From NCBI GenBank assembly GCA_001871685.1, contig MNVK01000096.1:1-40409 (forward strand): DNA of 40,409 nt, given 5' to 3'. Positions 2,770-40,409 of this stretch are shown one piece after another. The position numbers and the translations under genes are program-made. Position 1 is the first letter of the stretch. Each line of letters begins with the position of its first letter. The notes under the pieces are model-generated. The model did not search any database and was not told the origin of the DNA. It saw only the letters and a list, made by a program, of their open reading frames with translations. This DNA comes from Nitrospirae bacterium CG1_02_44_142. Lineage in GTDB: Bacteria > Nitrospirota > Thermodesulfovibrionia > Thermodesulfovibrionales > UBA1546.

Positions 2770-4871
2770 ATCTTCTCAAGATTTGCGCATCTGAGAGCGA
2801 GCCTCTTTACTCCCACATCCGGAAAATTTACCATCACTTTCTGTTCGTCTCCATCTCCATAACATTCCCTTATAACGCCTACTCCCCATTTGGGATGCTT
2901 TACCCTGCAGCCGATAATATAGAGCAGCGGCTTTTTAAATTGAACAGCTCTCTTCACAGAAACTGTGTTCGGCTGAGGACTTGCCGATTTCTCTATGCGC
3001 TGGCAGCACTGCTGAGGTATATCGGCAAGAAATCTTGACGGCTCCTGCTCTTGTACCTTTGTATTATATAACCTTCTCTTTTTCGTGCCGGTAAGCCATA
3101 ACACATTTTTTGCCCGCGTCATGCCCACATAGAATAACCTCCGCTCCTCTGATATCTCATCTTCATTCTGAAGCGCCTTAAAATACGGCATGAGCCCGTC
3201 TTCAAGCCCGGCAACAAAAACAACGGGAAATTCAAGGCCTTTTGTGCTGTGCAGTGTCATAAGCGATACGGAATTCTCTGCATTAATATCATCCATAGCG
3301 GTCAAGAGCGCCGCCCTGTCGCTGAAATCACCTATATCTTTTCCCTCTGCAGATGCAATAAGTTCATATATATTATGAGTTTTATCTTCCTCCACAGAAT
3401 CCATATATCCTGTTTTTTCAATTATCGCCTTCAGCATATCCGCGGCTGACCTGTATTCGTCAGAGGCGATGTGTTCTATGAGCTTGACAAAGCCGCCGAG
3501 TTTTCCCCTGACAGACAGAGCAACGCTGTTTGCCTTTAATATCGCCTTAATCGCAGCAAAGAGACTTAACGATTTATTCTTTGCTTCATGCTCTATTTTT
3601 GAGAGCGTTGCAGCGCCTATCCCTCTCACAGGACAGTTTATTATCCGTCTGAGGCTCACATTGTCATCATGATTTACGGCAAGGCGCATATATGCGATAA
3701 TATCTTTTATTTCCTTCCGATGATAGAAACTTATTCCGCCCATAACCCGATACGGAATCCTCTCGTCTCTCAGCGCATCCTCTATCGCCCTGGCCTGAAA
3801 ATTTACCCGGTAAAGCACAGCAAAATCCTTATAGCGGCATTCTCCCTTCAGATAAAGTTCCTTTATCATGGCTGCTATATGTTTCGCCTCGTCTTCCTCT
3901 GTATTGAACCAGCAGTAATAGACCTTCTCGCCGCAGCCCCTCTCTGTCCATAACTTCTTCGGCTTCCTGTCAGAGTTGCCGGCTATTACAGCGCCGGCAA
4001 CATCAAGTATGTTCTGTGTTGAGCGATAGTTCTGCTCAAGTTTTATGACCTTGGCCCGTGGAAAATCCTTTTCAAAGTTAAGAATATTCCTGACGTCGGC
4101 GCCCCTGAATTTGTATATGCTCTGGTCGTCGTCGCCGACAACACAGATATTATCCCTTGCGGCCAGTAATTTTAACAGACGGTACTGAGCATAGTTTGTA
4201 TCCTGAAATTCGTCAACCAGAACATAATTGAATATAGTCCTGTATTTTTCAAGCAGTAACGGGTTCTCCTCAAAAAGCTTAACCGCAAGCATTATGAGGT
4301 CGTCAAAGTCCAACGCATTGGACCTCTTTAATTCATCTTGATACCTCACATAGACCTTTGCAAGTTTTTCATCAAATCCAAAACCGTCTGTTTTTGAAAG
4401 AAACTTGCTCGGGGTTACAAGTGAAGACTTCAAGGAACTTATCCTGGAAGCAACCCCCTTATACATCGCCTCGTATATCCTGAACTCCTTCAGTATGTGC
4501 CTTATAAGATTACAATGGTCGTCAGTATCGTATATTAAAAAATTATTATTGTAGCCGAGCGCCTTTATCTCTTTCCTGAGTATCCTGTTGCACTGCGAAT
4601 GGAAGGTGCCTATCCATGAACCGTCCATATCCTTTCCAATGAGCAGGGCTATTCTGCGCTTCATCTCATCGGAGGCCTTGTTTGTAAAGGTGACAGCAAA
4701 GATTGAATGCGGAGAAACCTTGTTTGACTTTGCAAAATATGCAAACTTATGAGTAATAACCCTGGTCTTGCCGCTGCCTGCGCCTGCAAGCACAAGAAGC
4801 GGACTTCCTTCATGGAGCACCGCCTCTTTTTGCATGGGATTCAGGCCCTTCAATAAAAGCTCTCTTGACAT
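2766..4871 (-). CDS. pcrA: ATP-dependent DNA helicase, UvrD/PcrA family (SF1)
   Basis: Walker A 'AGAGSGKT', 'DEFQDTN', 'VGDDDQSIYKFRGA', 'QNYRST' and 'TLHSTKGLEF' helicase motifs. Confidence 0.9.
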   Translation of the reverse strand: MSRELLLKGLNPMQKEAVLHEGSPLLVLAGAGSGKTRVITHKFAYFAKSNKVSPHSIFAVTFTNKASDEMKRRIALLIGKDMDGSWIGTFHSQCNRILRKEIKALGYNNNFLIYDTDDHCNLIRHILKEFRIYEAMYKGVASRISSLKSSLVTPSKFLSKTDGFGFDEKLAKVYVRYQDELKRSNALDFDDLIMLAVKLFEENPLLLEKYRTIFNYVLVDEFQDTNYAQYRLLKLLAARDNICVVGDDDQSIYKFRGADVRNILNFEKDFPRAKVIKLEQNYRSTQNILDVAGAVIAGNSDRKPKKLWTERGCGEKVYYCWFNTEEDEAKHIAAMIKELYLKGECRYKDFAVLYRVNFQARAIEDALRDERIPYRVMGGISFYHRKEIKDIIAYMRLAVNHDDNVSLRRIINCPVRGIGAATLSKIEHEAKNKSLSLFAAIKAILKANSVALSVRGKLGGFVKLIEHIASDEYRSAADMLKAIIEKTGYMDSVEEDKTHNIYELIASAEGKDIGDFSDRAALLTAMDDINAENSVSLMTLHSTKGLEFPVVFVAGLEDGLMPYFKALQNEDEISEERRLFYVGMTRAKNVLWLTGTKKRRLYNTKVQEQEPSRFLADIPQQCCQRIEKSASPQPNTVSVKRAVQFKKPLLYIIGCRVKHPKWGVGVIRECYGDGDEQKVMVNFPDVGVKRLALRCANLEKI

Positions 4872-6765: not shown

Positions 6766-6772
6766 ATTAAAA

Positions 6773-6786
6773 CAGTGAACAGTGAA
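6773..6786. repeat. Heptamer word repeat CAGTGAA x2 (left flank of hairpin element copy A)
   Basis: CAGTGAACAGTGAA lies directly upstream of the glmS start. Related words are at 6843-6864 and 36099-36166. Confidence 0.6.
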
Positions 6787-6791
6787 GCGAA

Positions 6792-6838
6792 ACAACCCCT
6801 TTTATTCCCCCTTTGTTAAGGGGGATTGAGGGGGTTGT
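6792..6838. repeat. Nested C-run/G-run double-hairpin element, copy A (degenerate, intergenic glmU/glmS)
   Basis: ACAACCCC-TTTTATT-CCCCC-TTTGTTAA-GGGGG-ATTGA-GGGGGTTGT. The inner and outer C/G runs can both pair. Confidence 0.75.
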
Positions 6839-6842
6839 CCGG

Positions 6843-6864
6843 CAGTGAGTGAATAGTGAATAGT
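6843..6864. repeat. Heptamer word repeat (C)AGTGA(G/A)T x3 (right flank of copy A)
   Basis: CAGTGAGTGAATAGTGAATAGT. Confidence 0.6.
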
Positions 6865-6876
6865 TTAAATAAAACA

Positions 6877-8352
6877 CTATTTGTTTCCTTTCTTTTTAAC
6901 TTTGAATTTTGAACTTTGAATTTTGAATTTTTTTCGTGCCCATCCCTCTATGTTCTTTTGCTCTACCCTGCTCACTGAAAGCGACATGGCAGGAACGCAC
7001 TTGGTAATGGTAGAGCCTGCGCCTATGTATGCGCCTCTGCCAACTCTTACAGGCGCAATTAGCTGAGTGTCGCTGCCTATAAAAGCGCCGTCTTCTATTG
7101 TTGTCCTGCTCTTCTTTTTGCCGTCATAATTGCATGTTATTGTGCCTGCCCCGATATTGACGCCCTTTCCTATAGAGGCGTTACCGAGGTAACTGAGATG
7201 AGACGCCTTGGTCCCGCCGCCGAGCACAGATTTTTTGACTTCAACAAAATTCCCTATCTTTGCCTCGGAGCCGATATCGCATCCGGGCCTGATATGGGCA
7301 AAAGGCCCAACCACTGCTTTAGCCCGAATAACAGAACCCTCTATCACAGTAGAGTCCTTCACTACAACCCCATCCTTGATAACGCTGTCAACAATGCGCA
7401 CATTCGGATATATAGTGCATCCTCTGCCTATTTCGGTCCTGCCTTCAAGACAGACGTCAGGATAAATAGTTGTATTATTTCCTATAACAACGCTGTCTGA
7501 GATAAAGACTGAATCGTGGTCAAAAAATATAACACCCTTTTTAATCCAGGCGTCAGCCAGTCTCTCCCTGAATATTTTCCGCGCCTTCATCAGTTCAGGT
7601 ATTGTATTAACTCCCATCATCTCATCCTCAGAACCTATGCAGTAGGCATTTATTTTATAGCCCTTGTTTCCGGCGATGCCGATAATATCTGTAAGGTAAT
7701 ACTCACCCTTTGCAGCATTCAGGGGAATTTCTTTAAGCAGCGCTAAGGCTCCGGATTTTATAGCATATACTCCGCTGTTAACCTCATTGATTTTTCTCTG
7801 AGCCTCTGTTGCATCCTTATCCTCTACAATTGAGTTAATACGGCTGTTTCTGTCCCTTAATATTCTTCCGTATGAAGCAGGATTTGCCGCAGCAAATGAG
7901 ATAAGAGAAATATCATTCTTCCCTCTGAGGTGCAAACTGAGAAATTTCTTCAATGTCTCTGATGTAATGAGCGGGACGTCTCCGTTTAATACGAGTATCG
8001 TGCCTATGAAATCTTTCAGTCCGCCTAAGGCGGATTTTGCCCTTACAAGCGCATCGCCTGTCCCATTGGGTTTTTTCTGTATAACAAACGAAAGGCTGCT
8101 CTGTTTCCCTTTAGTAATCCCCTCTCGCCCCCCTTTAATAAAGGGGGGATGGGGAGATTTATTAATAGCATCTTTTATTTCCCCGTAATTCTTTCCAACT
8201 ACAATTACGATTTTTGACGGCTTAAGCCCTGATGCGGAATCAATTACACACTGCAGCATAGGTTTATCAAAAATTCCATGCAGAACCTTCGGCAAGGGAG
8301 AATTCATCCTCTCGCCCCGTCCTGCCGCCAGGATAACCACTGCAAGTTTCAT
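6877..8352 (-). CDS. glmU: Bifunctional UDP-N-acetylglucosamine pyrophosphorylase / glucosamine-1-phosphate N-acetyltransferase
   Basis: 'VILAAGRGERM', 'PKVLH' and 'NGTGDA' mark the nucleotidyltransferase domain, followed by long left-handed beta-helix hexapeptide repeats. The ORF carries an in-frame repeat insertion (8118-8155) and a repeat-encoded C-terminal tail (6900-6934). Confidence 0.9.
   Translation of the reverse strand: MKLAVVILAAGRGERMNSPLPKVLHGIFDKPMLQCVIDSASGLKPSKIVIVVGKNYGEIKDAINKSPHPPFIKGGREGITKGKQSSLSFVIQKKPNGTGDALVRAKSALGGLKDFIGTILVLNGDVPLITSETLKKFLSLHLRGKNDISLISFAAANPASYGRILRDRNSRINSIVEDKDATEAQRKINEVNSGVYAIKSGALALLKEIPLNAAKGEYYLTDIIGIAGNKGYKINAYCIGSEDEMMGVNTIPELMKARKIFRERLADAWIKKGVIFFDHDSVFISDSVVIGNNTTIYPDVCLEGRTEIGRGCTIYPNVRIVDSVIKDGVVVKDSTVIEGSVIRAKAVVGPFAHIRPGCDIGSEAKIGNFVEVKKSVLGGGTKASHLSYLGNASIGKGVNIGAGTITCNYDGKKKSRTTIEDGAFIGSDTQLIAPVRVGRGAYIGAGSTITKCVPAMSLSVSRVEQKNIEGWARKKFKIQSSKFKVKKKGNK
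6900..6934. repeat. Tandem TTGAAnT words (about 4.5 units) forming the 3' end of glmU
   Basis: CTTTGAATTTTGAACTTTGAATTTTGAATTTTTTT. Read on the minus strand it gives KKFKIQSSKFKV. A related word pair (TTCAAATTCAAAT) is at about 31786-31798. Confidence 0.6.
8118..8155. repeat. Nested C-run/G-run double-hairpin element, copy B (inside the glmU CDS, in-frame)
   Basis: TCCCC-TCTCG-CCCCCC-TTTAATAAA-GGGGGG-AT-GGGGA. It translates on the minus strand as SPHPPFIKGGREG. Confidence 0.8.
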
Positions 8353-8966
8353 TCTTTTGACTCCGATATGCGTGACGGCGCTGCAATGCCGCCTGAAAGT
8401 ATTATCTTTATGCCCTCCTCTATCGGAATGTCCGTATAGAAGACGTCGCCTTCGCCCAGCAGGACTATCTCGCCGAGATACAGATTATTCGTAGGTACAT
8501 ATACCGCCCTGAGGTATGATTCTTGGCCGTTTTTAGACGCCTTTACCGTACACTCTTTGGTCAGGAAGCCGAATGCATAGACTCCCTGTCTGGGGTATTC
8601 AACTATCACAAATTTCTTGAATGAACTTTTGTTTTCAGGCGAGAATGCGTCAACAAGCTGCTTTATTGCCGCATAAATGCCCTTGAACACAGGTATTCTG
8701 ACAACAGCCTTTTCAAAAAACTCTATTAACTTTTTACCGAAGACATTCGTTGATATTATGCCTATAAGAAATATCAGAATTACCGCAGATATGAATCCGA
8801 GGCCGGGGACCTGGTAGCCCAGCATCTTGTTGTAAAGGGGACCCAGTATGCCGTCAATAAACTCAAAAAACCATACGATAACTAAAACAGTAATTACCGC
8901 AGGAATTGAGACAATCAGTCCAGCAAGAAATTTTCTTTTAAGGACAGCGCGCATAGAAGTTGACAT
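8349..8966 (-). CDS. DUF502-family membrane protein
   Basis: It has two N-terminal TM helices followed by 'GKKLIEFFEKAVVRIPVFKGIYAAIKQL', which is DUF502-like. Start set at the ATG at 8966 (MSTSMRAVLKRK); the ATG at 8954 is an alternative. It overlaps the glmU start by 4 nt. Confidence 0.75.
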   Translation of the reverse strand: MSTSMRAVLKRKFLAGLIVSIPAVITVLVIVWFFEFIDGILGPLYNKMLGYQVPGLGFISAVILIFLIGIISTNVFGKKLIEFFEKAVVRIPVFKGIYAAIKQLVDAFSPENKSSFKKFVIVEYPRQGVYAFGFLTKECTVKASKNGQESYLRAVYVPTNNLYLGEIVLLGEGDVFYTDIPIEEGIKIILSGGIAAPSRISESKE

Positions 8967-9037
8967 ATTGTTATTTATAATAACGCCGCAGGCATTGATA
9001 TTGCAAGAGCCTACATGGTGCATAACACAGGATTCAA

Positions 9038-9080
9038 CCCCCCTCTATCCCCCCTTAGTAAGGGGGGAATTAAAGGGGGG
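9038..9080. repeat. Nested C6/G6 double-hairpin element, copy C (archetype, intergenic)
   Basis: CCCCCC-TCTAT-CCCCCC-TTAGTAA-GGGGGG-AATTAAA-GGGGGG. Confidence 0.85.
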
Positions 9081-9098
9081 TATCGTGCATCGTGCATC
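9081..9098. repeat. Heptamer word repeat ATCGTGC x2 abutting copy C
   Basis: TATCGTGCATCGTGCATC. The same word family occurs at 25497-25524 and 37314-37346. Confidence 0.6.
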
Positions 9099-9104
9099 CT
9101 TTCA

Positions 9105-9860
9105 TTATTTTACTGCCTTCTCAGCCGCTTCGTCAGGAATATCAAAATTTGCATAAACATTCTGGACGTCGTCATGGTCTTCAAGCGCATCCATAAGCCT
9201 TATCATCTGCTCTGCCGCCTTTCCGTCCAAGACTACATAGTTTTTGGGGAGCATGGTTATCTCAGCGGACTCAACAGGAATATTTGCCTTCTCAAGCGCA
9301 GCTTTAACATTATTGAAATCTTCAGGAGCAGTTATTATCTCAAAGTTTTCTTCTTCAGGGTCATTTTTCATATCCTCAGCCCCTGCATCAAGGGCAGCAG
9401 ACATTACAGAGTCTTCAGATACCTTAGATTTATTAACCAGGATATATCCTTTTTTATCAAAGAGCCACGAAACACAGCCTGTTTCTCCGAGGCTCCCGCC
9501 GTGTTTTGCCATTGCATGTCTTATCTCCGGGACAGTCCTGTTCTTGTTGTCAGTCAGCGTCTCTATCATCATTGCAACACCTGAAGGGCCGTACCCTTCA
9601 TACATGATTTCCTCATATGTAACTCCGGGAAGTTCGCCTGTGCCCTTCATAATCGCCCTTTTAATATTGTCGTGGGGCATATTGACCTCTTTTGCCTTTT
9701 CCATTGCAGTGCGCAATCTCGGATTGCCGTCAGGGTCGCCGCCTCCGAACCTGGCCGCAACCGCTATCTCCTTGACGAGTTTAGTAAATGCCCTGCCCCT
9801 TTTTGCGTCCGTGTTAGCCTTTTTATATTTTATCTGAGACCATTTTGAATGTCCTGACAT
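9105..9860 (-). CDS. yebC: YebC/PmpR-family DNA-binding transcriptional regulator
   Basis: '[37 protein letters not shown]' is the canonical YebC N-terminus. 251 aa. Confidence 0.9.
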
Positions 9861-9891: not shown

Positions 9892-11259
9892 CTATTCTTC
9901 TATATGATATTCTTTTATCTTAGTTAAAAGCGTTTTATAACTTACCTGCAGGACTTCTGCCGCCCTGCTTTTATTTCCCTTTGTCTCTTTCAGCGCCTTT
10001 ATTATCCGCTGAGTCTCAGCAATCCTTAATGCCTCTCTCCGAGCTGCTCGGAGCGCTCCGTCCATCGGGAGATTCTTTATGTACGATTCAAAGGATAAAG
10101 GGCTCAGTGATATATCCTCGGGCATTATCACCTTCCCGTCGCATAATATTATGGCCCGTTCTATTGTATTTTCAAGCTCTCTGACATTCCCCTTCCACGG
10201 ATACTCAACCATCATTTCAAGGGCTTCGGCAGAGATAGTCTTTAAAGGCGTCTTGAGTTCGGCGCAGTATTTGTTAAGGAAAAACCCTGCAAGCATAGGA
10301 ATATCCTCAACCCTTTCTCTGAGCAGAGGAATCCTGACAGGGAATACGCTCAACCTGTAGTAAAGGTCTTCCCTGAATGTCTTTTCTGAAACAGCCTTTT
10401 CAATGTCCCGGTTACTTGCAGCGATAACCCTTACGTCTATCTTTATCGTTTTCAGGCCTCCGAGCCTTTCTATCTCCCCTTCCTGAAGCGCCCTTAGCAG
10501 CTTGGACTGAAGCGCAGTATCCATCTCGCCTATTTCATCAAGAAATATAGTGCCTTTATCAGCCAGTTCAAATTTGCCGAGTTTCTTATAATCAGCGCCT
10601 GTAAAAGCTCCCTTTTCATGCCCGAAAAGCTCTGACTCCAATAGTTCCCCCGGTATGGCAGCGCAGTTTATAGGGACAAACGGATATTCCTTTCTCGGGC
10701 TGAGGTAATGAATGGCCCTTGCGAACAATTCCTTGCCTGTGCCGCTTTCACCGAGAATCAGCACAGTTGTCTTGCTCGGCGCAACCTTCTGTATCTGCTG
10801 GGCCACTTCTGATATTTTTTCGCTTTTGCCTATTATCATCGGCAGTCCGAGCTGTGATGAAAACTCCTCTTTCATAAGCATATTCTCTGTCATCAGCCTT
10901 TGAGTCTCAAGCGCCCTCTTCATAAGCACCAGAAGATGGTCGGTATCAAAAGGCTTTGTAATAAAATCAAATGCGCCTTCTTTAATTGCAAGCACGGCAG
11001 TCTCAACAGAACCAAAGGCAGTCATTACAATTACCGGCATTAAAGGATTCTCTTCCTTCGCGGCCATTAATACATCTATGCCGTTTTTTCTGGGAAGTTT
11101 CAAATCAGTAAGGACCAGGTCAATCCTGTTTTCTTTTATTTTTTTTATACCTTCCGGCCCGTCTTTTGCCGTAATAGTCCTGTAGCCCTCAGTCCTGAGG
11201 GTCTCCTTAAGCATATCTGACATTGATTCTCTGTCTTCAACTATAAGAATGGTATCCAT
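9892..11259 (-). CDS. Sigma-54-dependent Fis-family response regulator (NtrC/AtoC-like)
   Basis: It has a receiver domain ('DLVLTDLKLP'), an AAA+ domain with 'GESGTGKE', the 'GAFTGA' sigma54-contact loop, and a C-terminal Fis-type HTH ('AAEVLQVSYKTLLTKIKEY'). No adjacent histidine kinase is present. Confidence 0.9.
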   Translation of the reverse strand: MDTILIVEDRESMSDMLKETLRTEGYRTITAKDGPEGIKKIKENRIDLVLTDLKLPRKNGIDVLMAAKEENPLMPVIVMTAFGSVETAVLAIKEGAFDFITKPFDTDHLLVLMKRALETQRLMTENMLMKEEFSSQLGLPMIIGKSEKISEVAQQIQKVAPSKTTVLILGESGTGKELFARAIHYLSPRKEYPFVPINCAAIPGELLESELFGHEKGAFTGADYKKLGKFELADKGTIFLDEIGEMDTALQSKLLRALQEGEIERLGGLKTIKIDVRVIAASNRDIEKAVSEKTFREDLYYRLSVFPVRIPLLRERVEDIPMLAGFFLNKYCAELKTPLKTISAEALEMMVEYPWKGNVRELENTIERAIILCDGKVIMPEDISLSPLSFESYIKNLPMDGALRAARREALRIAETQRIIKALKETKGNKSRAAEVLQVSYKTLLTKIKEYHIEE

Positions 11260-11294
11260 GTGAAAAGTTATTGCTCCTAACAGTTCTCTACGCT

Positions 11295-11366
11295 GTCATT
11301 GCGAGCCCCGAGCGGCTCGGGACGAAGCAATCTCACGACGAGATTCCTCGCTTCGCTCGGAATGAC
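11295..11366. repeat. Structured REP/MITE-like element with 12-nt terminal inverted repeats and two internal hairpins
   Basis: The ends are GTCATTGCGAGC and GCTCGGAATGAC (imperfect inverted repeat). Internal hairpins are CCCGAGC-G-GCTCGGG and CGAAGCAATCTC-ACGAC-GAGATT(CCTC)GCTTCG. It is intergenic between the NtrC-like start and the mtnP stop. Confidence 0.7.
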
Positions 11367-11383
11367 AAATTAGTAATATGTTA

Positions 11384-12163
11384 TCACATCTTTGCATTCG
11401 CAAGGGCGTCCTTGCATCCGCAGTTTCTTGTATGAGGGATGCCGGCAAAGGTCTTTTCTAAAAGAGCCTTCACCACTTCTGAGGATTCTGCCATGGTCCT
11501 TACAACCTCGGTTGTGGTAAGCCTGCTGCCTGAGATACCGGCAGCATAATTTGTGACAACACCTATTCCTGCAAAACATATCGCAAGCTCTCTTGCCAGA
11601 GACGCCTCCGGCATGCCTGTCATTCCAACCACATCAGCGCCCAGCAAAGAAAACGCCTTTATTTCCGCAGCAGTCTCGAGCCTCGGGCCGTTTACGCATA
11701 CATAGGTTGCATCCTCTTTAAGCGCAACTCCCGCCTTTTTACCTGCCGTGAGTAATGCTGTCCGCAGCTCAGGGCAATACGGCTCGGTAAAGTCCACATG
11801 CACGATTTCTTCTTCATCATAAAATGTTGACGCCCGGCCCTCTGTCATATCAATAATCTGATTAAGAATGACGATTGAACCCGGTTTAAGCTTAGGATTT
11901 ATTCCCCCAACCGCATTCACGGAGATAATCCTTTCTGCTCCGAGTTCTCTGAAACCCCGGATATTCGCCCTGTAGTTAACCTTATGCGGAGCAATATGGT
12001 GAGGAGAACCGTGCCTTGGAAGAAATGCAACCTCTACTCCTGCTATCTCGCCAATCCTGTAAGAATCGGAAGGAGCGCCAAAAGGAGTTGAGATTCTTTT
12101 CTCCTCCTTGATGACTACTCCATCAATCTCATAAACCCCGCTTCCACCTATAACGCCAAGCAT
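11384..12163 (-). CDS. mtnP: S-methyl-5'-thioadenosine phosphorylase (PNP/MTAP family)
   Basis: 'GVIGGSG', 'FLPRHG..H.I.PH.VNYRANI' and 'VGMT..PE..LARE' are typical of MTAP. Confidence 0.85.
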   Translation of the reverse strand: MLGVIGGSGVYEIDGVVIKEEKRISTPFGAPSDSYRIGEIAGVEVAFLPRHGSPHHIAPHKVNYRANIRGFRELGAERIISVNAVGGINPKLKPGSIVILNQIIDMTEGRASTFYDEEEIVHVDFTEPYCPELRTALLTAGKKAGVALKEDATYVCVNGPRLETAAEIKAFSLLGADVVGMTGMPEASLARELAICFAGIGVVTNYAAGISGSRLTTTEVVRTMAESSEVVKALLEKTFAGIPHTRNCGCKDALANAKM

Positions 12164-14664: not shown

Positions 14665-14729
14665 CGAAAAGCCATATTTCCGTTCTCTAGTTATAATCCT
14701 TTCGGCTATCCATCTTCATAGCTGAGATA

Positions 14730-14810
14730 ATAGGGATGTGTCCCTGATTAATTACTATAGGGATGTGTCCCTGATTAATTATTAAATATGGGAAGTGTCC
14801 CTCTACTATC
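14730..14810 (+). repeat. Iteron-like direct repeats: 25-nt unit x2 (27-bp period) plus a third diverged unit
   Basis: ATAGGGATGTGTCCCTGATTAATTA occurs at 14730-14754 and 14757-14781. TGGGAAGTGTCCCTCTACTATC follows at 14789-14810. Each unit contains the small palindrome GGGA-nnnn-TCCC. Confidence 0.8.
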
Positions 14811-14854: not shown

Positions 14855-17800
14855 TCACGCAAACAACTCCCCCTGTAATTTCTGCAAAATTTTGTTCTGC
14901 AATTTCTGGCTGGTGATGGAGGAGATGTGGTCGGAGATTATTCTGTCTATTTTTTCTTTAAGGGCTTTGAGTTCTGGAAGGATTTTTGAGATGTATAATT
15001 CGTCTTTTGGTATCTTTATTTCCTCAAGCCCTGACTCAAGCCAAACCTTTAAAAACTCTGCTTCTGCTTCACTTGAGCAGTCTATGTGGTCTTTACCAGA
15101 AAAAATACGCCAGCCAAAGAGTTCGTTTTTGATTTCTACCCCCCTCTTTCCCCCCTTGCTAAGGGGGGATGTAAGGGGGGCCAGATGAAAGAGCTTAACG
15201 GTTTTAAGGTTTTTCTGATTAAGGATTTTTTCTCTGTAGAAATGTCCAAGAAGTTTATCTCCAAGCTTATCTTTAATTGTCTTTGTTAAAAGTTCAACAT
15301 CAACACCCTCCGTTGTCTTTCCTTTTTTATCAACGCTTCTTGCCTTTTCTATCCTTGATTTCACAAGGTCAACAACTGCACGATAGACCTCAAGCTGTTC
15401 GTCATCGGTTAAACCAAGAATATCGCCCATGATTATTTTGTCCAGTTCACGGCGGTCAGGCTTGACTTTATCGAGAGAAACTTCATCAGATGAATAAGCC
15501 TTTAAATCTTCAAATATGGATTTTATTTCAGGAGAGGGATATTTTATAGCTAGTTTTTTGAGTTTTAACCGCCCATCCTTAGAGAAATTTTTTATAACTG
15601 GAGTTTTTTCAAAATCTGTGCCTTTTATATCAATAGGCCCTGTCCCACCGCCATAGGTTCTGCTGTAAAATTCTTTAAATAACATGCTCACTGTAGAAAG
15701 TAAAAAACAAAGCAATGGCAGAACATCACGCTTTCTTTTTGGTTTTATCTCCATAAAACTGCAATCAGCCTGAAACATATACTTATTTGAAATCACTAAT
15801 TGTCTATCTGTGTGAACTCTTGGATAAAAGATCGGCCACGTTTCTCTATATTCAAGTTCATACCATCTATTACGAGATGAACATGTTGACCTGTTATGAA
15901 AACCCTTCCTCTCCCCTTGTTTGATATAAGAGAGAACCTTTTTGCTTTTTAGTTTCTCTTTGTCTTTGTTTATGAAAAGAACAATCTTTGATAAATCTTC
16001 AGGAGATACAACAACCTTTTTTGCTTCCCTCGGGCTTACAAGCACTCTATTCGGCGCCCATTCATCTTTGTCATTTTTATGCATCCAGAATTCTTTTTCA
16101 ATTCCTCTCTCTTTTATTTCTTCTTCTGTCAGATAGAAAAACTCATTTACACCTGTTGTAAATCCTCTCCTGATATCCGCTATCTTTTTTAATGGCGCAA
16201 GTTTATCCTTACCCTTTTCAAGAATCTTAAAAAATATCTCCGGAGCCCTCAGATACTTGCCCCATTTTGAGCCTGTATATTTTCTTTCTTCTGTGTCAAA
16301 ACCTTCTTCCCACAGCTCGCTCTGTTTTTTGGGATAAATTCTTAATTCATCGTTCTGGTAAAAGTCATTGTGATAGAGAATTGTTTTAATAAGGTTTCCA
16401 ATGGCGTCAAGCCTTTGTTTCTGTTTTTCCCACATGTCGTGGGCAGGCGGGATAAAATGTCTTAAGGGTTTTAAGAGATATGCAAATCTGACCAGATTTT
16501 CATCTCTTTCTTTCTGATATTTGCACTTCTCAAGGATTATTATGCAGGTATTGATGTCAGCATCTTCAAACCAGCGTTCAACTTTGGATTCAATGATTGC
16601 AATGATTTTATAGTTCTTGAGAAATAGTTCTTGAAGCCCTTTCCCGTAATCCACATCCATCCACGAATTTGAGACAATAAAGCCGAAACGGCCGCCATCT
16701 TTCAGAAACTTTGTCCCATGCACAAAGAAATAGGCATGAATGCCAGCCCTCTTTGAGATATCTGCAAGCTTCCGCCCGCCATAAATAAGAGCTTTCTCGA
16801 TAAGATTTTTCTTGTAACCGGCTTTTTCAGTAATTTCGGCTATTTCTTCCTGCCTTGTGTAAGGCGGATTGCCTACGATGCAGTCAAACCACCGCGGATG
16901 AGTTATCTCTTTTTGCTCCGTGCCTAATGTTTTAGCCTTTAGTTTTCTCCATCTTTCAGTCAGCTCAACACCACCATCAGGTTTCACCAATAGATTGAAA
17001 AAGTCTTCCCGTGCAATGTTCGGATAATTTTTAATAACACCCAAGTCATTGATTGCAAGGTTAATGGTTGCAAGGTGAGCAGGGAATTTTGCTATATCCA
17101 CACCCCACAGGCTTTCAAGAATTTCCTGATGTGCAAGCCTGTTATTCATAAGTTTCTTGTGCTGATATGCCCTGACGAGAAATGTGCCTGCACCGCATGA
17201 GGGATCTATAACCTTGTCGTCTTCATGTTTCAGGCAGAACTTTAAGATCAGGTCAACAACATCTGGGCTTGTGAAATATTGCCCCAAAATATGGCGCTCT
17301 TCCTGAGGGATCAGCTTTTCAAATATTCTTCCGATAATGTCAAAGCCGATTTTTGAAAAATCATATTCCTTTATGATAGCTACAAGTCCTTTAATCTCTT
17401 CAACAACTTCTCTGCTATCGGGGAATGCTATCTGGTCAATAAAATCAGTGCTGTAAATAGTTTCGTAGTCAATGTTATCCGTTATATAATTGAAATACGT
17501 TTGTTGCAAGATTTTCTGAAGCTGTCCCCCTGCAGTTAAATCATCAGGGATGAGCAGTGAGGCAAGGTTTGTATACTTTGTTTTTAGAGCCTGATAAAAA
17601 AGCAGCTTATTTATGAGCAAATACGCTGTCTGCCGTGCTACCTTGTCGAAATCTTCTTCCTGAGCTGCAAAGCTCCACTGTTGTTCAATAAACCAGATTT
17701 TGAGTTTCTTGGCAAAGTCAGAATCTTTATGAAAACTATCTCTTATAATATTTCTATAAAAACGAGATAAGCGCAGATTCTTCACATGAAGCTTTAATAT

Positions 17801-18364
17801 TAAAAGCTCGTCAATAGGTAAAAGATGTTCCGGTTTTTTGCCGGTATGGATATCAATGAGCTCAAACAGGAATTTCTCAAGACCCTTGATTATCGCACTC
17901 TTGAATCTTGGTTCTTCAATATTGTTCAAGTCCTCTATTGTAGAAAGGTCATATATCCCTGCAATCTGGATTGACTCATCGGACTGTTTGTTAACTTCTT
18001 CCGTTTTATACAAAATAAGCTTCTGGAAGTTTGAGCATCCAAAATATTTGGCTTTTCTTTGCACTGCCTTTTCCCATGCTGGCTTTTTGAGTTCCTTAAA
18101 ATCAAATGGGTCAAAATAAGGCGGCTTAAGCTCAATAACGCATAGGGCATCGGTACTTTGAGGTGATTTATAAATGATGATATCAGGCTGTTTTCTGTCT
18201 GCGCCTACGGTTTCCTGTTCTGAAAAACCGATTGGTAAGGATTGCTCTTTGATTATCTGATTTATCCATTCAACAGCTTTTTGATTGGCGGTGCGCTCGG
18301 TCTTATTGCTTGAAGTATCATAAGGCGAAGATAATTTTATAGGCTTTCCTCTAATCTTAGACAT
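14855..18364 (-). CDS. Type IIG-like restriction-modification enzyme (N-terminal PD-(D/E)xK nuclease + gamma-class N6-adenine DNA methyltransferase + target-recognition domain)
   Basis: 1169 aa. The N-terminus 'QPDIIIY...CVIELKPP...CSNFQKLILY' resembles the HSDR_N/PD-ExK motif. MTase motif I is 'VIDPSCGAGTFLV' and motif IV is 'VGNPPYTRQEE'. An Eco57I/TaqI-type TRD motif 'RRGFTTGVNEFFYL' is present. The gene is visibly more A+T-rich than its neighbours and carries an in-frame repeat insertion at 15139-15180. Confidence 0.8.
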   Translation of the reverse strand: MSKIRGKPIKLSSPYDTSSNKTERTANQKAVEWINQIIKEQSLPIGFSEQETVGADRKQPDIIIYKSPQSTDALCVIELKPPYFDPFDFKELKKPAWEKAVQRKAKYFGCSNFQKLILYKTEEVNKQSDESIQIAGIYDLSTIEDLNNIEEPRFKSAIIKGLEKFLFELIDIHTGKKPEHLLPIDELLILKLHVKNLRLSRFYRNIIRDSFHKDSDFAKKLKIWFIEQQWSFAAQEEDFDKVARQTAYLLINKLLFYQALKTKYTNLASLLIPDDLTAGGQLQKILQQTYFNYITDNIDYETIYSTDFIDQIAFPDSREVVEEIKGLVAIIKEYDFSKIGFDIIGRIFEKLIPQEERHILGQYFTSPDVVDLILKFCLKHEDDKVIDPSCGAGTFLVRAYQHKKLMNNRLAHQEILESLWGVDIAKFPAHLATINLAINDLGVIKNYPNIAREDFFNLLVKPDGGVELTERWRKLKAKTLGTEQKEITHPRWFDCIVGNPPYTRQEEIAEITEKAGYKKNLIEKALIYGGRKLADISKRAGIHAYFFVHGTKFLKDGGRFGFIVSNSWMDVDYGKGLQELFLKNYKIIAIIESKVERWFEDADINTCIIILEKCKYQKERDENLVRFAYLLKPLRHFIPPAHDMWEKQKQRLDAIGNLIKTILYHNDFYQNDELRIYPKKQSELWEEGFDTEERKYTGSKWGKYLRAPEIFFKILEKGKDKLAPLKKIADIRRGFTTGVNEFFYLTEEEIKERGIEKEFWMHKNDKDEWAPNRVLVSPREAKKVVVSPEDLSKIVLFINKDKEKLKSKKVLSYIKQGERKGFHNRSTCSSRNRWYELEYRETWPIFYPRVHTDRQLVISNKYMFQADCSFMEIKPKRKRDVLPLLCFLLSTVSMLFKEFYSRTYGGGTGPIDIKGTDFEKTPVIKNFSKDGRLKLKKLAIKYPSPEIKSIFEDLKAYSSDEVSLDKVKPDRRELDKIIMGDILGLTDDEQLEVYRAVVDLVKSRIEKARSVDKKGKTTEGVDVELLTKTIKDKLGDKLLGHFYREKILNQKNLKTVKLFHLAPLTSPLSKGGKRGVEIKNELFGWRIFSGKDHIDCSSEAEAEFLKVWLESGLEEIKIPKDELYISKILPELKALKEKIDRIISDHISSITSQKLQNKILQKLQGELFA
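15139..15180. repeat. Nested C6/G6 double-hairpin element, copy D (inside the Type IIG CDS, exactly 42 nt)
   Basis: CCCCCC-TCTTT-CCCCCC-TTGCTAA-GGGGGG-ATGTAA-GGGGGG. The minus-strand reading across and flanking the element is LAPLTSPLSKGGKRGV. Confidence 0.85.
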
Positions 18365-24766: not shown

Positions 24767-25426
24767 ATGCTGAAGATAGGCGTCCTTGCATCGGGCCGCG
24801 GCTCTAACTTTCAGGCAATAATAGACGAGATAGAAAATAAAAATCTCAAAGCCTCAATAGAGATATTGATAACAGACAATCCATCCGCCTTTGCGATAGA
24901 ACGGGCTGAGAGGCATAACATAAACCACATGTTTATAAACCCCGAAGACTTCGCTGCAAAGGATGAATTCTTCAAAAAAATTGCAGACGAACTTAAATCA
25001 CGCGGCGTTGACCTCGTTATACTTGCAGGATTCATGAGAATTGTAAGAAAACCCCTGATAGACGCATTCCCCGATAGGATAATGAATATCCATCCCGCGC
25101 TGCTCCCTGCATTCCCGGGGATGCACGGACAGAGACAGGCGCTTGATTACGGCGTAAAGATTTCAGGATGCACAGTTCATTTTGTTGACGGGGGCATGGA
25201 TACAGGACCGGTTATCATTCAGGCGGCAGTCCCTGTGACGTCTGATGACACGGAAGACACGCTTTCCGAACGCATACTGAGTTTTGAGCACAAGATATAT
25301 CCTGAGGCAGTAAGGCTCTTTTCAGAGGGAAGGCTTGAGATAAAGGGCAGGAAGGTTGTGATAAAAAACCATTCCGCAGTCATATCAAATATTGTAAACC
25401 CGCCCATAGATGAAACAGATGCATGA
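24767..25426 (+). CDS. purN: Phosphoribosylglycinamide formyltransferase
   Basis: 'IGVLASGRGSNFQAII', 'NIHPALLPAF.G' and 'SGCTVHFVD.GMDTGPVI' are PurN signatures. Confidence 0.95.
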   Translation: MLKIGVLASGRGSNFQAIIDEIENKNLKASIEILITDNPSAFAIERAERHNINHMFINPEDFAAKDEFFKKIADELKSRGVDLVILAGFMRIVRKPLIDAFPDRIMNIHPALLPAFPGMHGQRQALDYGVKISGCTVHFVDGGMDTGPVIIQAAVPVTSDDTEDTLSERILSFEHKIYPEAVRLFSEGRLEIKGRKVVIKNHSAVISNIVNPPIDETDA

Positions 25427-25450
25427 TACAAGATGCAGGATGCAAGATTT
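25409..25450. repeat. Heptamer array GATGCAn x about 5 (left arm of the composite element around copy E)
   Basis: GATGCAT GATACAA GATGCAG GATGCAA GATTTAA. It contains the purN stop codon (25424-25426). Confidence 0.7.
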
Positions 25451-25452
25451 AA

Positions 25453-25495
25453 CCCCTCTCAGTCCCCCCTTATTAAGGGGGGAAGTAAAGGGGGG
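25453..25495. repeat. Nested C/G double-hairpin element, copy E (intergenic purN/rsmD)
   Basis: CCCC-TCTCAGT-CCCCCC-TTATTAA-GGGGGG-AAGTAAA-GGGGGG. Confidence 0.85.
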
Positions 25496-25496
25496 T

Positions 25497-25524
25497 ATCA
25501 TGTATCGTGCATCATGAATCATGA
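25497..25524. repeat. Heptamer array ATCnTGn x4 (right arm, inverted relative to the left arm)
   Basis: ATCATGT ATCGTGC ATCATGA ATCATGA. The reverse complement of the left arm reads ATCTTGC ATCCTGC ATCTTGT ATCATGC. It contains the rsmD start codon (25521). Confidence 0.7.
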
Positions 25525-26093
25525 AAATCTCCGCAGGCCATTTAAAAGGAAGAAAGATAAACTTCAGAAAAGCGCAGAAGGCTGCTAAAAAAGAGCATAC
25601 ATTAAGACCAACCTCATCCAAGGTGAGAGAATCCATTTTTAACATCATAGGCGCTTTAATCTCAGGCTCTCAATTCGCTGACCTCTATGCAGGCACAGGC
25701 GCGGTAGGGATAGAGGCAATGAGCAGAGGAGCTAAAAGGGTCTTCTTTGTAGAGGCTGACAGGAAAAGAGCAGAGATGATAAAGGATATGCTGAAAGACT
25801 GCGGCTGCATCCCAAGAGCCAATATCATAAAAGGAGAAGCATCCGCCTTTATAACTAAGGCGGTAAGAGAGGGTTTGAGATTTAATATAATATTCCTTGA
25901 CCCTCCTTATCATTCAGGAGCGCTTGAACATATACTTCCACTGCTGTCCGGCGGAGAACTGCTTCACGATGAAGGCATTATCATTGCAGAACACCTTTCA
26001 AAGAAAAAGCTGCCCGATGAAATCGGCAAACTCTTACAGAAGAAGGCTTACAAATACGGCGATACTATGCTAACATTATACAGAAAGGTTTAA
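25521..26093 (+). CDS. rsmD: 16S rRNA (guanine966-N2)-methyltransferase
   Basis: 'RPTSSKVRESIFNI', 'DLYAGTGAVGIEAMSRGA' and 'IIFLDPPY' are RsmD signatures. Confidence 0.9.
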   Translation: MKISAGHLKGRKINFRKAQKAAKKEHTLRPTSSKVRESIFNIIGALISGSQFADLYAGTGAVGIEAMSRGAKRVFFVEADRKRAEMIKDMLKDCGCIPRANIIKGEASAFITKAVREGLRFNIIFLDPPYHSGALEHILPLLSGGELLHDEGIIIAEHLSKKKLPDEIGKLLQKKAYKYGDTMLTLYRKV

Positions 26094-39787: not shown

Positions 39788-40409
39788 ATGAACTTCAGCG
39801 GCATAAAAAAAATTCTTGTCATAAAACTCCGTCATATCGGCGATGTCCTCTTAAGCGTGCCTGTATTCAGGGCGTTAAGAGAAAATTTCCCGGAGGCGCA
39901 TATTGCCGCCCTCGTGAATTCGGGCACGGAAGAGGTCTTAGAGGCAAGCCCGTTTATTAATGAGATAATAGCCTTTGACCGAGGCATTAAGAAAATGAAT
40001 CCTGTACAGAGATACAGAAAAGAACTAGCATTCCTAAGAATGCTGCGGAAGAAAGGTTCTGATATGACAGTTGACCTCACAGGCGGCGACAGGGCTGCAA
40101 TAATATCCTTTGTCTCAGGCGCATCATACAGGCTCGGCCCTGACGTCAAAGAGGGTTTTTTAGGGAAAAGATATTTATATACTCACCTTGCAGTAAGAAA
40201 TAATAATCAGCGCACTAATCAACATATAGTCCTGCAAAACCTTGATATCATAAGCCGGTTCGGCGTCAAAACAGACAATCTCTCCGTGGATATATCTATC
40301 CCTGAAGACGCAAGGGTATTTGTTAAAAAGGTCTTTGAAAAAAACGGGATAAATAAAATAAAGACTACCCCCCTATGTCCCCCCTTAATAAGGGGGGAAT
40401 TTAAGGGGG
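39788..40409 (+). CDS. Glycosyltransferase family 9 (LPS heptosyltransferase-like), partial; runs off the right window edge
   Basis: Not in the ORF track because it is open-ended. The translation is MNFSGIKKILVIKLRHIGDVLLSVPVFRALRENFPEAHIAALVNSGTEEVL...; 'ILVI.L..IGDVLL..P..RAL...FP.A.I' is the GT9 N-terminus. The antisense track ORF at 39832-40149 is its shadow. The last 42 nt are repeat copy F, read in-frame. Confidence 0.8.
   Translation, partial: MNFSGIKKILVIKLRHIGDVLLSVPVFRALRENFPEAHIAALVNSGTEEVLEASPFINEIIAFDRGIKKMNPVQRYRKELAFLRMLRKKGSDMTVDLTGGDRAAIISFVSGASYRLGPDVKEGFLGKRYLYTHLAVRNNNQRTNQHIVLQNLDIISRFGVKTDNLSVDISIPEDARVFVKKVFEKNGINKIKTTPLCPPLIRGEFKG
40368..40409. repeat. Nested C6/G6 double-hairpin element, copy F (inside the GT9 CDS; truncated by the window end)
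   Basis: CCCCCC-TATGT-CCCCCC-TTAATAA-GGGGGG-AATTTAA-GGGGG. The plus-strand reading is (T)PLCPPLIRGEFKG. Confidence 0.85.

What the first reader, a model, noticed from the sequence alone, without database searches (positions are those of the whole stretch)
9038..9098. Dispersed ~42-nt nested C6/G6 double-hairpin element: six copies in 40 kb
Six copies share one architecture: C(4-6) - about 5-7 nt - C(5-6) - TTnnnAA-type loop - G(5-6) - about 2-7 nt - G(4-6). They lie at 6792-6838, 8118-8155, 9038-9080, 15139-15180, 25453-25495 and 40368-40409.

Both the inner and outer C/G runs are self-complementary, so each copy can fold as a long interrupted hairpin or cruciform. Copies B-F have the C-runs first on the plus strand and a 5-7-nt left spacer starting T(C/A)T. 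Copy A has the reversed spacer asymmetry (7 nt then 5 nt) and may be inverted.

Three copies are intergenic. Three are inside unrelated coding genes and are always read through without a stop. This is about one copy per 7 kb, far above chance for a 40-nt pattern. No transposase is present in the window.

The behaviour resembles REP/MITE families and especially Rickettsia palindromic elements, which are known to insert in-frame into protein genes. Several spurious track ORFs are just read-through of these copies (for example 9015-9584, 8848-9156 and 25385-25648, with 'PLSKGGIKGG', 'PPLVRGELKGG' and 'SPLNKGGLRG').
Basis: seen in the sequence. Interest (0 to 1): 0.8.

Follow-up and report, generated by a model that had tools for sequence, protein, structure and literature searches.

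The report
Tiny nested-hairpin mobile DNA repeat
The window carries six copies of a 42-48-base self-folding DNA repeat that has recently been added between genes and, in frame, inside essential genes of a Nitrospirota bacterium; nearly the same repeat also occurs in cyanobacteria, planctomycetes and other phyla, and nothing yet shows what moves it.

Summary
Exactly six copies of an A-C6-(5 nt)-C6-TTNNNAA-G6-(6-7 nt)-G6-T nested hairpin lie at the stated coordinates. The pattern gave 9 matches against 0.05 in shuffles. A covariance model run with filters off finds only these six.

For each copy, at least one related genome or protein lacks it at the same position. A, C and E are intergenic and sit in heptamer tandem arrays. 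B (GlmU), D (N6-methyltransferase gene) and F (GT9 heptosyltransferase) are in-frame inserts of about 12-21 codons. Relatives show independent and nested insertions at the same protein loops.

There is no transposase in the window, no target-site duplication, no terminator tail and no orientation bias relative to genes. It is not a REP or RPE member, and MITE criteria are largely unmet. It behaves most like Elhai's cyanobacterial small dispersed repeats.

I read it as a non-autonomous palindromic mobile element moved in trans by an unidentified enzyme. That mechanism is inferred, not shown.

The parts
6792..6838 (-). Copy A. Subtype with 5-nt runs, an 8-nt loop and an ACAA...TTGT outer extension. 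Intergenic between glmU (stop at 6877) and glmS (start at 6766). Inverted relative to C-F.
   Evidence: 45.4 bits on minus, 38.1 on plus. A roughly 60-nt gap at this position in the orthologous spacers of L002 and L004. The same subtype occurs as L210 11130-11176.
8116..8158 (.). Copy B. Degenerate subtype with a 2-nt spacer and a 9-nt loop. Lies inside glmU and is read in frame as KSPHPPFIKGGREGI. It is a 57-nt (19-codon) insertion in a loop of the N-terminal uridyltransferase domain.
   Evidence: Absent from orthologues P0003-P0009 at 78-85% identity. Absent from the best-matching solved structure, S. pneumoniae GlmU 4aaw, where the alignment has an 18-residue gap at this exact place.
9035..9082 (+). 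Copy C, the best match to the family model. Intergenic between yebC-like (stop at 9105) and DUF502 (start at 9023), both on the minus strand.
   Evidence: 69.5 bits. L002 and L004 have no element in this spacer.
15136..15183 (+). Copy D. Lies inside the 1169-aa N6-methyltransferase/Eco57I-type gene (14855-18364, minus strand) and is read as APLTSPLSKGGKRGV. It is a 12-codon insertion.
   Evidence: Present only in the window and in P0256; absent from the other 42 homologues that cover the site.
25450..25497 (+). Copy E. Intergenic between purN-like (24767-25426) and rsmD-like (25521-26093), both on the plus strand.
   Evidence: A clean empty site in L213, whose flanks are nearly identical; the window has about 61 extra nt, made of the element plus two or three heptamer units.
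40365..40409 (+). Copy F, cut by the window end. Lies inside the GT9 heptosyltransferase gene that starts at 39788 and is read as TTPLCPPLIRGEFKGG.
   Evidence: Complete in L210 (99.9% identical) and L118. Absent from orthologues P0125, P0126 and P0133-P0146.
6771..6864 (.). Heptamer tandem arrays (AACAGTG and AGTGAAT) on both sides of copy A.
9082..9098 (.). Heptamer tandem array (ATCGTGC) directly next to copy C. This falls within the coordinates given in the finding.
   Evidence: L002 carries related heptamers in the same spacer.
25417..25525 (.). Heptamer tandem arrays (AGATGCA on the left, ATCATGA on the right) enclosing copy E.
6877..8352 (-). glmU, the host gene of copy B.
14855..18364 (-). 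N6-methyltransferase (restriction-modification type) gene, the host gene of copy D.
   Evidence: PF02384, PF07669 and PF22837 in homologues.
39788..40409 (+). GT9 heptosyltransferase gene, which runs off the window; host gene of copy F. In L210 it also holds two further C6/G6 copies and one unrelated hairpin insert.

Best explanation
The six sequences are copies of a very small, non-autonomous palindromic mobile element. Its oriented consensus is A-C6-T(C/A)T(G/A)T-C6-TTNNNAA-G6-A(A/T)(T/G)(T/A)AA(A)-G6-T, about 42-48 nt. It folds into two 6-8-bp G:C stems separated by an asymmetric internal loop.

Shown:
- Copies have been added to the genome after the divergence of close relatives.
- They land in heptamer tandem arrays in short operon spacers.
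- They land in loops of protein-coding genes, where only in-frame, stop-free events survive. There they add 12-21 residues rich in Pro, Leu, Lys and Gly.
- They also land inside older copies of themselves.
- After insertion, copies decay by point mutation.

Inferred:
- The element encodes nothing, so it must be moved in trans by a function encoded elsewhere in the genome.
- My favoured candidate is an enzyme that recognises the folded single strand. A HUH/Y1-type transposase such as a RAYT or an IS200-family TnpA would fit. This suits the hairpin with a conserved unpaired internal loop, the lack of a target-site duplication and the lack of terminal inverted repeats distinct from the hairpin.
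- In the window the copies are passengers. Their side effects are strong hairpins in polycistronic mRNAs and extra surface loops in GlmU, the methyltransferase and the heptosyltransferase.
- The near-identity of the element across phyla, unpaired spacers included, implies a shared recognition machinery or horizontal spread.
For: Real and enriched.

Insertion polymorphism at all six sites:
- A, B and C.
- D.
- E.
- F.

Load differs sharply between close relatives: 6 copies in 40 kb here, against 0 in 21 kb of L002, 0 in 21 kb of L213 and 1 in 17 kb of L004.

Repeated and nested insertion:
- A GlmU clade at about 60% identity carries an insert at the same loop.
- L202 has a second complete double hairpin inside the loop of the first (+33 nt, with one G-run lost).
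- GT9 orthologues carry inserts at four sites, and some are nested.

Other supporting results:
- The intergenic copies lie in heptamer arrays.
- In long ORFs there is no orientation bias relative to the coding strand: 32 against 24, p = 0.35. In the window, copies lie in both orientations relative to transcription.
- None is terminator-like.
- There are no Rfam matches.
- Orthologous F copies decay: 0, 0, 2 and 4 changes in 45 nt, and in L211 the changes break the runs.

Cross-phylum family:
- More than 117 loci in Cyanobacteria, Nitrospirota, Planctomycetota and others, including complete isolate genomes.
- The unconstrained spacer positions are conserved. ATGAAA is found in 10 of 10 copies of the (5,6) spacer class in cyanobacteria and planctomycetes.
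- Copies from other phyla score as high as the window's own.
- The element is also inside an intact CDS on a Nostoc punctiforme plasmid.
Against: - No mobilising enzyme was found. There is none in the window.
- No gene family is enriched next to the element in 121 loci. The four TnpB genes near copies are themselves interrupted by the element, so they are targets, not parents.
- No movement was observed directly. The insertions are inferred from comparing relatives that are only about 80-87% identical.
- Insert lengths relative to empty sites (33, 36, 57, about 61 nt) are not a fixed unit. The nested case has lost a G-run. Both observations fit recombination or template switching at the C/G runs as well as they fit transposition.
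- All stems are invariant C/G runs, so there is no covariation evidence for structure as opposed to sequence.
- The six window copies all differ from one another, so there is no sign of a very recent burst.
Confidence: 0.6

Rival explanations
1. The copies spread without a dedicated enzyme. Illegitimate recombination, gene conversion or replication template switching between hairpins uses the C6/G6 runs and the heptamer arrays as microhomology. Selection then keeps only in-frame outcomes in genes.
For: - Net insert sizes vary: 33, 36, 57 and about 61 nt.
- In L202 the new copy shares a G-run with the old one, and 11 nt of the old copy are missing.
- Copy E arrived together with extra heptamer units.
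- No transposase association was found.
- There is no target-site duplication beyond a self-complementary AT in the cyanobacterial subtype.
Against: - It does not explain how a first copy reaches sites that have no C or G runs, such as the GlmU, methyltransferase and GT9 loops and the heptamer arrays. The empty sites show no such runs.
- It does not explain why the unpaired spacer sequences are conserved across phyla.
Confidence: 0.15
2. The element moves through an RNA intermediate: transcription, then reverse transcription and insertion. As I recall it, Elhai and colleagues suggested this for cyanobacterial small dispersed repeats.
For: - The behaviour resembles those repeats: copies embedded in heptamer arrays and nested in themselves.
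- The G:U-tolerant variant CCCCTC paired with GGGGGG recurs in several copies, which works as RNA but is a mismatch as DNA.
- The host phyla are, from my own knowledge, rich in reverse transcriptases.
Against: - Copies occur in both orientations relative to transcription, which is not decisive.
- No reverse transcriptase was seen near copies.
- There are no poly-A or priming features.
- The Elhai paper could not be read here.
Confidence: 0.1
3. The hairpins are host regulatory sites kept for function, for example mRNA stabilisers, processing sites, attenuators or protein-binding sites in operon spacers. They would not be selfish mobile DNA.
For: - A, C and E sit in 80-110-nt spacers between co-directional genes and would form RNA hairpins of -28 to -36 kcal/mol.
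- The sequence is conserved across phyla.
Against: - Half the copies are inside coding sequences.
- The spacers of close relatives lack them.
- Orientation relative to transcription is mixed.
- There is no U-tail.
- Orthologous copies decay.
- Exaptation of individual copies is not excluded.
Confidence: 0.07
4. The pattern is a chance low-complexity coincidence or an assembly artefact.
For: None beyond the homopolymer content.
Against: - Shuffles give 0.05 against 9 matches.
- Identical copies appear in an independent assembly, L210 at 99.9% identity.
- The element is present in finished isolate genomes and plasmids.
- Reading frames are intact across copies.
Confidence: 0.01

Closest known systems
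Small dispersed repeats (SDR1-8) of Nostoc punctiforme and relatives (Elhai et al. 2008, Genome Res 18:1484). Cited in PMC5861425, PMC3116915 and PMC4390886; the paper itself is not held, so the details are from my memory of its abstract.
   Same: - Very small hairpin-forming dispersed repeats with no coding capacity.
- Embedded in tandem heptamer arrays.
- Nested inside copies of themselves.
- Evidence of recent mobility without a known enzyme.
- The C6/G6 element occurs in N. punctiforme itself and in other Nostocales.
   Different: - The SDRs are 21-27 nt (SDR5 is 21 nt; bioRxiv 10.64898/2026.06.24.733823). They were reported as confined to one cyanobacterial subgroup (PMC5861425).
- This element is 42-48 nt and is found in Nitrospirota, Planctomycetota and other phyla.
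- Whether its inner 19-21-nt hairpin equals one of the SDR sequences could not be checked.
REP / REPIN elements mobilised by RAYT (TnpA-REP) transposases.
   Same: - Imperfect palindromes of 20-40 nt.
- Dispersed at high density.
- Non-coding and moved in trans.
- Form hairpins in operon spacers.
- No target-site duplication.
   Different: - No GTAG or CGTC head (5 of 147 copies).
- Copies are single, not inverted pairs.
- About 43% lie inside long ORFs, whereas REPs are extragenic.
- No RAYT gene was seen.
- The sequence is shared across phyla, whereas REP sequences are lineage-specific.
Rickettsia palindromic elements (RPE).
   Same: Palindromic repeats that insert in frame into unrelated, often essential, genes and add a peptide segment that the protein tolerates (PMC10969869).
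   Different: - RPEs are about 100-150 bp and restricted to Rickettsia.
- Their sequence is unrelated, and they encode a longer conserved peptide.
- This element is 42-48 nt and adds 12-21 residues.
Bacterial MITEs (for example Nezha and Chunjie).
   Same: Non-autonomous, dispersed, inverted-repeat architecture, and can sit in operons or genes without disrupting them.
   Different: - MITEs are usually 100-400 bp. They have terminal inverted repeats matching a parent IS and a target-site duplication.
- No parent IS was found, and there is no duplication in the window copies.

Membership tests
REP/REPIN-RAYT | Conserved GTAG or CGTC tetranucleotide at one end of the palindrome (PMC3733652). | tested here: not met
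   Only 5 of 147 copies have GTAG or CGTC within 8 nt of an end, and none of the window copies do.
REP/REPIN-RAYT | Extragenic location. | tested here: not met
   3 of the 6 window copies are in CDS. 62 of 143 copies lie in stop-free spans with at least 60 codons on each side.
REP/REPIN-RAYT | A RAYT (Y1 transposase) gene in the same genome, typically flanked by REPs. | not testable with these tools
   Only about 41.5 kb of this genome is available, and it holds none. None was found in the 121 loci clustered, but only a few clusters were Pfam-scanned.
REP/REPIN-RAYT | Arrangement as inverted doublets (REPINs). | tested here: not met
   All window copies are singletons 1-15 kb apart.
Rickettsia palindromic elements | About 100-150-bp element, Rickettsia lineage, conserved RPE sequence families. 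| tested here: not met
   The element is 42-48 nt and the host is Nitrospirota. The RPE description is from PMC10969869.
Rickettsia palindromic elements | In-frame insertion into unrelated protein genes with a tolerated peptide. | tested here: met
   GlmU, the N6-methyltransferase gene and the GT9 gene each carry an in-frame insert that orthologues lack.
MITE | Target-site duplication. | tested here: not met
   None in the window copies. The only excess is a self-complementary AT...AT in the cyanobacterial subtype, which cannot be told apart from an extension of the palindrome.
MITE | A parent insertion sequence with the same termini. | tested here: inconclusive
   No recurrent transposase lies next to copies in 121 loci. 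TnpB genes are interrupted by the element rather than bounded by it. Whole genomes were not searched.
Small dispersed repeats (Elhai 2008) | Embedded in tandem heptamer repeats. | tested here: met
   All three intergenic copies are flanked by heptamer arrays.
Small dispersed repeats (Elhai 2008) | Nested insertion into copies of itself. | tested here: met
   L202 against L122 in glmU. GT9 proteins P0152, P0158 and P0131. Not seen in the window itself.
Small dispersed repeats (Elhai 2008) | Length of 21-27 nt and sequence identity to SDR1-8. | not testable with these tools
   The paper is not held. The unit here is 42-48 nt. Single 19-21-nt hairpins are rare: 5 of about 195 inner hairpins.
Small dispersed repeats (Elhai 2008) | Confined to a subgroup of cyanobacteria. 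| tested here: not met
   Found in Nitrospirota, Planctomycetota, Calditrichota, Chloroflexia, Deinococcota and others.
Intrinsic terminator | GC-rich hairpin followed by a U-tract, oriented with transcription. | tested here: not met
   None of the copies is called terminator-like. Orientation relative to transcription is mixed.
Any Rfam RNA family | Score at or above the gathering threshold. | tested here: not met
   0 matches in the window.

The most novel reading that the evidence does not exclude
The C6/G6 nested hairpin is one cross-phylum superfamily of the smallest known mobile DNA. Its conserved asymmetric internal loop would be the recognition site of a single mobilising enzyme, not yet identified, that has spread horizontally among Cyanobacteria, Planctomycetota, Nitrospirota and others. 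Its repeated in-frame landing in the same surface loops would then be a general, ongoing source of loop insertions in essential bacterial enzymes.
Probability: 0.3. Interest if true: 0.8.

Novelty: new variant of a known kind. Interest (0 to 1): 0.62.

Why it matters
- **Annotation.** These copies create spurious ORFs such as 8848-9156 and 9015-9584. They also lengthen real proteins by 12-60 residues. The GT9 enzyme of this organism carries three copies plus another hairpin insert.
- **Protein evolution.** Together with at least three other tiny hairpin families seen in relatives, this gives a second clear case outside Rickettsia of palindromic DNA remodelling essential enzymes in frame.
- **Mobile-element biology.** A 42-nt element conserved to its unpaired bases across phyla, with no known mobiliser, gives a concrete handle on the open question of how REP/SDR-sized repeats move. 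Phylogenetic profiling of element presence against gene content could name the enzyme.

Tried and rejected
- **Rfam**: nothing.
- **tRNA/tmRNA**: nothing.
- **Metagenome scan for close glmU loci**: it returned only relatives at 61% identity or less. These were useless for orthologous empty sites but served as a background, with 3 copies in 800 kb.
- **Viral contigs**: only 4 of 2.9 million contigs, so a phage vector is not indicated.
- **Neighbour-gene clustering for a mobilising enzyme**. The big cluster is made of signalling and TPR proteins that often contain the element. The others scanned are aminotransferases, UvrA-like and ferredoxin or redox proteins. The TnpB cluster turned out to be genes interrupted by the element.
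- **Target-site duplication test**: negative apart from the ambiguous AT.
- **Element conserved more than its flanks?** For copy F the immediate flanks are equally conserved, so there is no evidence of constraint.
- **Double hairpin as a 21-nt unit nested in itself with a 2-nt duplication.** This fits the TCTGT/ATGAAA class but not the others, so I dropped it.
- **Integron attC, K-turn and Shine-Dalgarno/start readings of the spacers.** The consensus does not fit any of them (by inspection).
- **Literature searches by sequence and by peptide**: no description found.
- **Elhai 2008**: could not be read.

Full report
**1. The observation**

Reading the six stated positions shows one architecture.
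- A: aaCAACCCC-ttttatt-CCCCC-TTTGTTAA-GGGGG-attga-GGGGGTTG
- B: CCCC-tctcg-CCCCCC-TTTAATAAA-GGGGGG-at-GGGG
- C: CCCCCC-tctat-CCCCCC-TTAGTAA-GGGGGG-aattaaa-GGGGGG
- D: CCCCCC-tcttt-CCCCCC-TTGCTAA-GGGGGG-atgtaa-GGGGGG
- E: CCCC-tctcagt-CCCCCC-TTATTAA-GGGGGG-aagtaaa-GGGGGG
- F: CCCCCC-tatgt-CCCCCC-TTAATAA-GGGGGG-aatttaa-GGGGG (window end)

A simple core pattern gives 9 matches, against 0.05 expected from shuffles. No other C-run/loop/G-run hairpin exists in the window.

I built a covariance model from 39 oriented copies, three from the window and 36 from other loci. Run with all filters off, it returns exactly these six, with E from 5e-16 to 8e-5. The next hit has 15 bits.

The model also gives each copy a polarity. 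C, D, E and F score 10-14 bits better on the plus strand. A scores better on the minus strand. B is ambiguous.

All copies fold as two stems separated by an asymmetric internal loop. As DNA the energies are -12.6 to -18.5 kcal/mol. As RNA they are -24 to -36 kcal/mol.

**2. Context**

The organism is a Nitrospirota (Thermodesulfovibrionia-like) MAG, judged from the names on the closest proteins.

The window holds housekeeping genes, toxin-antitoxin genes and a restriction-modification-type methyltransferase. It holds no transposase.
- A lies between glmU and glmS.
- C lies between a yebC-like gene and a DUF502 gene.
- E lies between purN-like and rsmD-like genes.

Each of these sits in an 80-110-nt spacer between co-directional genes. 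Each is embedded in tandem heptamer repeats.
- B is inside glmU.
- D is inside a 1169-aa N6-methyltransferase gene.
- F is inside a GT9 heptosyltransferase gene.

All three are read through in frame.

**3. Are they insertions?**

Yes, at all six sites.

Sites A, B and C:
- Syntenic loci from two related genomes were fetched.
- L002 (GlmU 85% identical) has none of A, B or C. L004 (87%) has only B.
- GlmU orthologues at 78-85% identity lack the 19-codon segment.
- The best-matching solved structure, S. pneumoniae GlmU 4aaw, lacks it as well; the alignment has an 18-residue gap exactly there.

Sites D, E and F:
- D is a 12-codon insert present only in the window and one 82%-identical fragment. 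The other 42 homologues that cover the site lack it.
- E has a clean empty site in L213, whose flanks are almost identical. The window has about 61 extra bases, made of the element plus two or three heptamer units.
- F is shared with several relatives but absent from orthologues at 83% identity and below.

Load differs between close relatives. The model finds 0 copies in 21 kb of L002 and 0 in 21 kb of L213, against 6 in 40 kb here.

L210 is a 99.9%-identical assembly that extends 1.16 kb past the window. It shows two further copies in the same GT9 gene.

**4. Behaviour in relatives**

A GlmU clade at about 60% identity carries a C6/G6 insert in the same loop. Some of its members carry secondary inserts inside the first one.

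At the DNA level, L202 compared with L122 shows a second complete double hairpin placed in the loop of the first. The net gain is 33 nt, and one G-run plus five loop bases of the old copy are lost. L204 has a different 24-nt hairpin inserted within a C-run.

GT9 orthologues carry C6/G6 inserts at four different sites, some of them nested. They also carry two other tiny hairpin families.

Orthologous F copies differ by 0, 0, 2 and 4 bases in 45. In L211 the changes break the runs. So after insertion the copies drift at about the rate of their flanks.

**5. What it is not**
- It matches no Rfam family.
- It is not terminator-like.
- It has no GTAG or CGTC head.
- It has no target-site duplication in the window copies. 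The only excess anywhere is a self-complementary AT...AT in a cyanobacterial subtype.
- It shows no orientation preference relative to the coding strand: 32 against 24.
- I found no neighbouring transposase family. The one transposase-type cluster (TnpB, four cyanobacterial loci) consists of genes interrupted by the element.

A typical copy has 4 of 6 frames open. 43% of copies lie in long stop-free spans, against 62% of random windows by the same crude test. Read-through is therefore the expected survivor outcome, with moderate depletion from genes.

**6. The unexpected part**

A scan of one genome per species for the full double-hairpin pattern has a chance expectation of well under a few hits. 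By my hand tally of the locus list they break down as follows:
- about 50 Cyanobacteria, including finished genomes of Scytonema, Calothrix and Capilliphycus;
- about 26 Nitrospirota;
- about 18 Planctomycetota;
- plus Calditrichota, Latescibacterota, Chloroflexia, Nitrospinota, Patescibacteria, Cloacimonadales and Calidithermus.

Two hits on very short contigs in odd bins look mis-binned: L118 in a 'Methanobacteriota' bin and L068 in a 'Burkholderiaceae' bin. The large chromosomes are not in doubt.

After orientation, the positions my pattern did not constrain are still conserved:
- a flanking A...T pair;
- a left spacer T-N-T-N-T;
- right spacers ATGAAA (10 of 10 copies in the (5,6) spacer class of cyanobacteria and planctomycetes) or AATTAAA (mostly Nitrospirota).

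Window copy D and a Phycisphaerales copy (L081) differ at 3 of 42 positions. Copies from other phyla score as high against the model as the window's own.

By contrast, 800 kb of unselected bacterial glmU loci contain 3 copies. 2.9 million viral contigs contain 4.

The element is also present in frame in a CHAT-domain gene on a Nostoc punctiforme plasmid. It also lies under annotated methylase and restriction-enzyme genes on Planktothrix plasmids; frame was not checked there.

**7. Mechanism**

Shown:
- lineage-specific gain at many sites;
- preference or tolerance for heptamer arrays, protein surface loops and older copies;
- no coding capacity;
- both orientations;
- decay after insertion.

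Inferred: movement in trans by a function encoded elsewhere. I favour an enzyme that recognises the folded single strand, of the HUH/Y1 type used by REPs and IS200/IS605. Three things point that way:
- the conserved feature is a hairpin with a conserved unpaired internal loop;
- there is no target duplication;
- there are no separate terminal repeats.

This is a resemblance, not a result. The variable net insert sizes and the lost G-run in the nested case fit template switching or recombination at the runs equally well. An RNA intermediate, which as I recall was proposed for cyanobacterial small dispersed repeats, is not excluded either.

My confidence that this is selfish, insertion-polymorphic repeat DNA is about 0.85. 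My confidence in the single-strand transposase route is about 0.35. The overall 0.6 reflects both.

**8. Comparison with what is known**

The closest match in behaviour is Elhai's small dispersed repeats. Those are very small hairpins embedded in heptamer arrays and nested in themselves. This comes from my memory of the abstract. Their existence, the 21-nt size of SDR5 and its insertion into HIP1 are confirmed by PMC5861425, PMC4390886 and a 2026 preprint.

This element differs in three ways. It is twice as long. It reaches far beyond the cyanobacterial subgroup those repeats were said to be confined to. I could not compare the sequences.

It works like Rickettsia palindromic elements with respect to in-frame insertion (PMC10969869), but it is three times shorter and unrelated. 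It fails the REP tests (head, extragenic location, doublets) and the MITE tests (duplication, parent IS).

I found no paper containing the sequence or its typical peptides.

**9. Verdict**

It is a new variant of a known kind. The cross-phylum conservation and the missing mobiliser make it more interesting than a routine REP-like family.

Noticed in passing
window 6771-6786, 6848-6864, 6893-6931, 9082-9098, 25417-25448, 25497-25525, 36099-36131, 37315-37341; L210 about 11060-11090: Short tandem heptamer arrays fill many intergenic spacers, with different heptamers at each site. One array, (GGGGTCA)x4, lies inside the GT9 coding sequence just past the window end. They resemble the STRR heptamers of heterocystous cyanobacteria, and they differ between close relatives.
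   Followed up: partly
L210 11100-11210; GT9 orthologues P0121-P0165; GlmU P0012, P0041, P0051; L204 about 3200-3260: At least three or four other families of tiny hairpin inserts occupy the same protein loops in relatives. One is read as GDCPRFTD...GTVPVGQ, with GGGGACTGTCCC arms. Others are read as SPVNLGQS and GVLQYAPT. One is a 24-nt insert read as CPTDGRRA inside a C-run.
   Followed up: partly
window 14728-14802: Three tandem 27-nt units, each containing the small hairpin GGGATGTGTCCC, lie just downstream of the methyltransferase gene. They could be another repeat family or an operator-like site.
   Followed up: no
L118 (JBDROC010000055.1) and L068 (CAZFET010000516.1): L118 is a 5-kb contig binned in a 'Methanobacteriota archaeon' MAG, yet it is 85-87% identical to this Nitrospirota window and carries copy F. 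L068 is a 1.9-kb 'Burkholderiaceae' contig carrying a Nitrospirota-type copy. Both look mis-binned.
   Followed up: partly
L210 (ENA ERZ27293382 k141_125062) 10001-11401: In the same organism as the window, the GT9 heptosyltransferase is 466 aa, against 380-410 aa in relatives. It carries three C6/G6 copies, one other hairpin insert and a heptamer array, all in frame.
   Followed up: yes
L215 and hits H2-H7 (Planktothrix agardhii plasmids); window 14855-18364: On Planktothrix plasmids the element, with tandem partial copies, lies under annotated N-6 DNA methylase or restriction genes. Window copy D also lies in an N6-methyltransferase gene. I did not test whether these are homologous genes or a coincidence.
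   Followed up: no
window 6877-6940 (3' end of glmU): The C-terminal tail of GlmU (KKFKIQSSKFKVKKKGNK) is encoded by the TTTTGAA/TTCAAAG heptamer array. It varies in length and sequence among orthologues, so heptamer arrays also contribute coding sequence.
   Followed up: no
L202 3001-3130: In MAG138 the annotated GlmU has an N-terminal extension, read as PPNPPTPPFGKGGLRGILKGGRGDF. It comes from one or two further element copies at the DUF502/glmU junction, and the annotated start codon is probably wrong.
   Followed up: no
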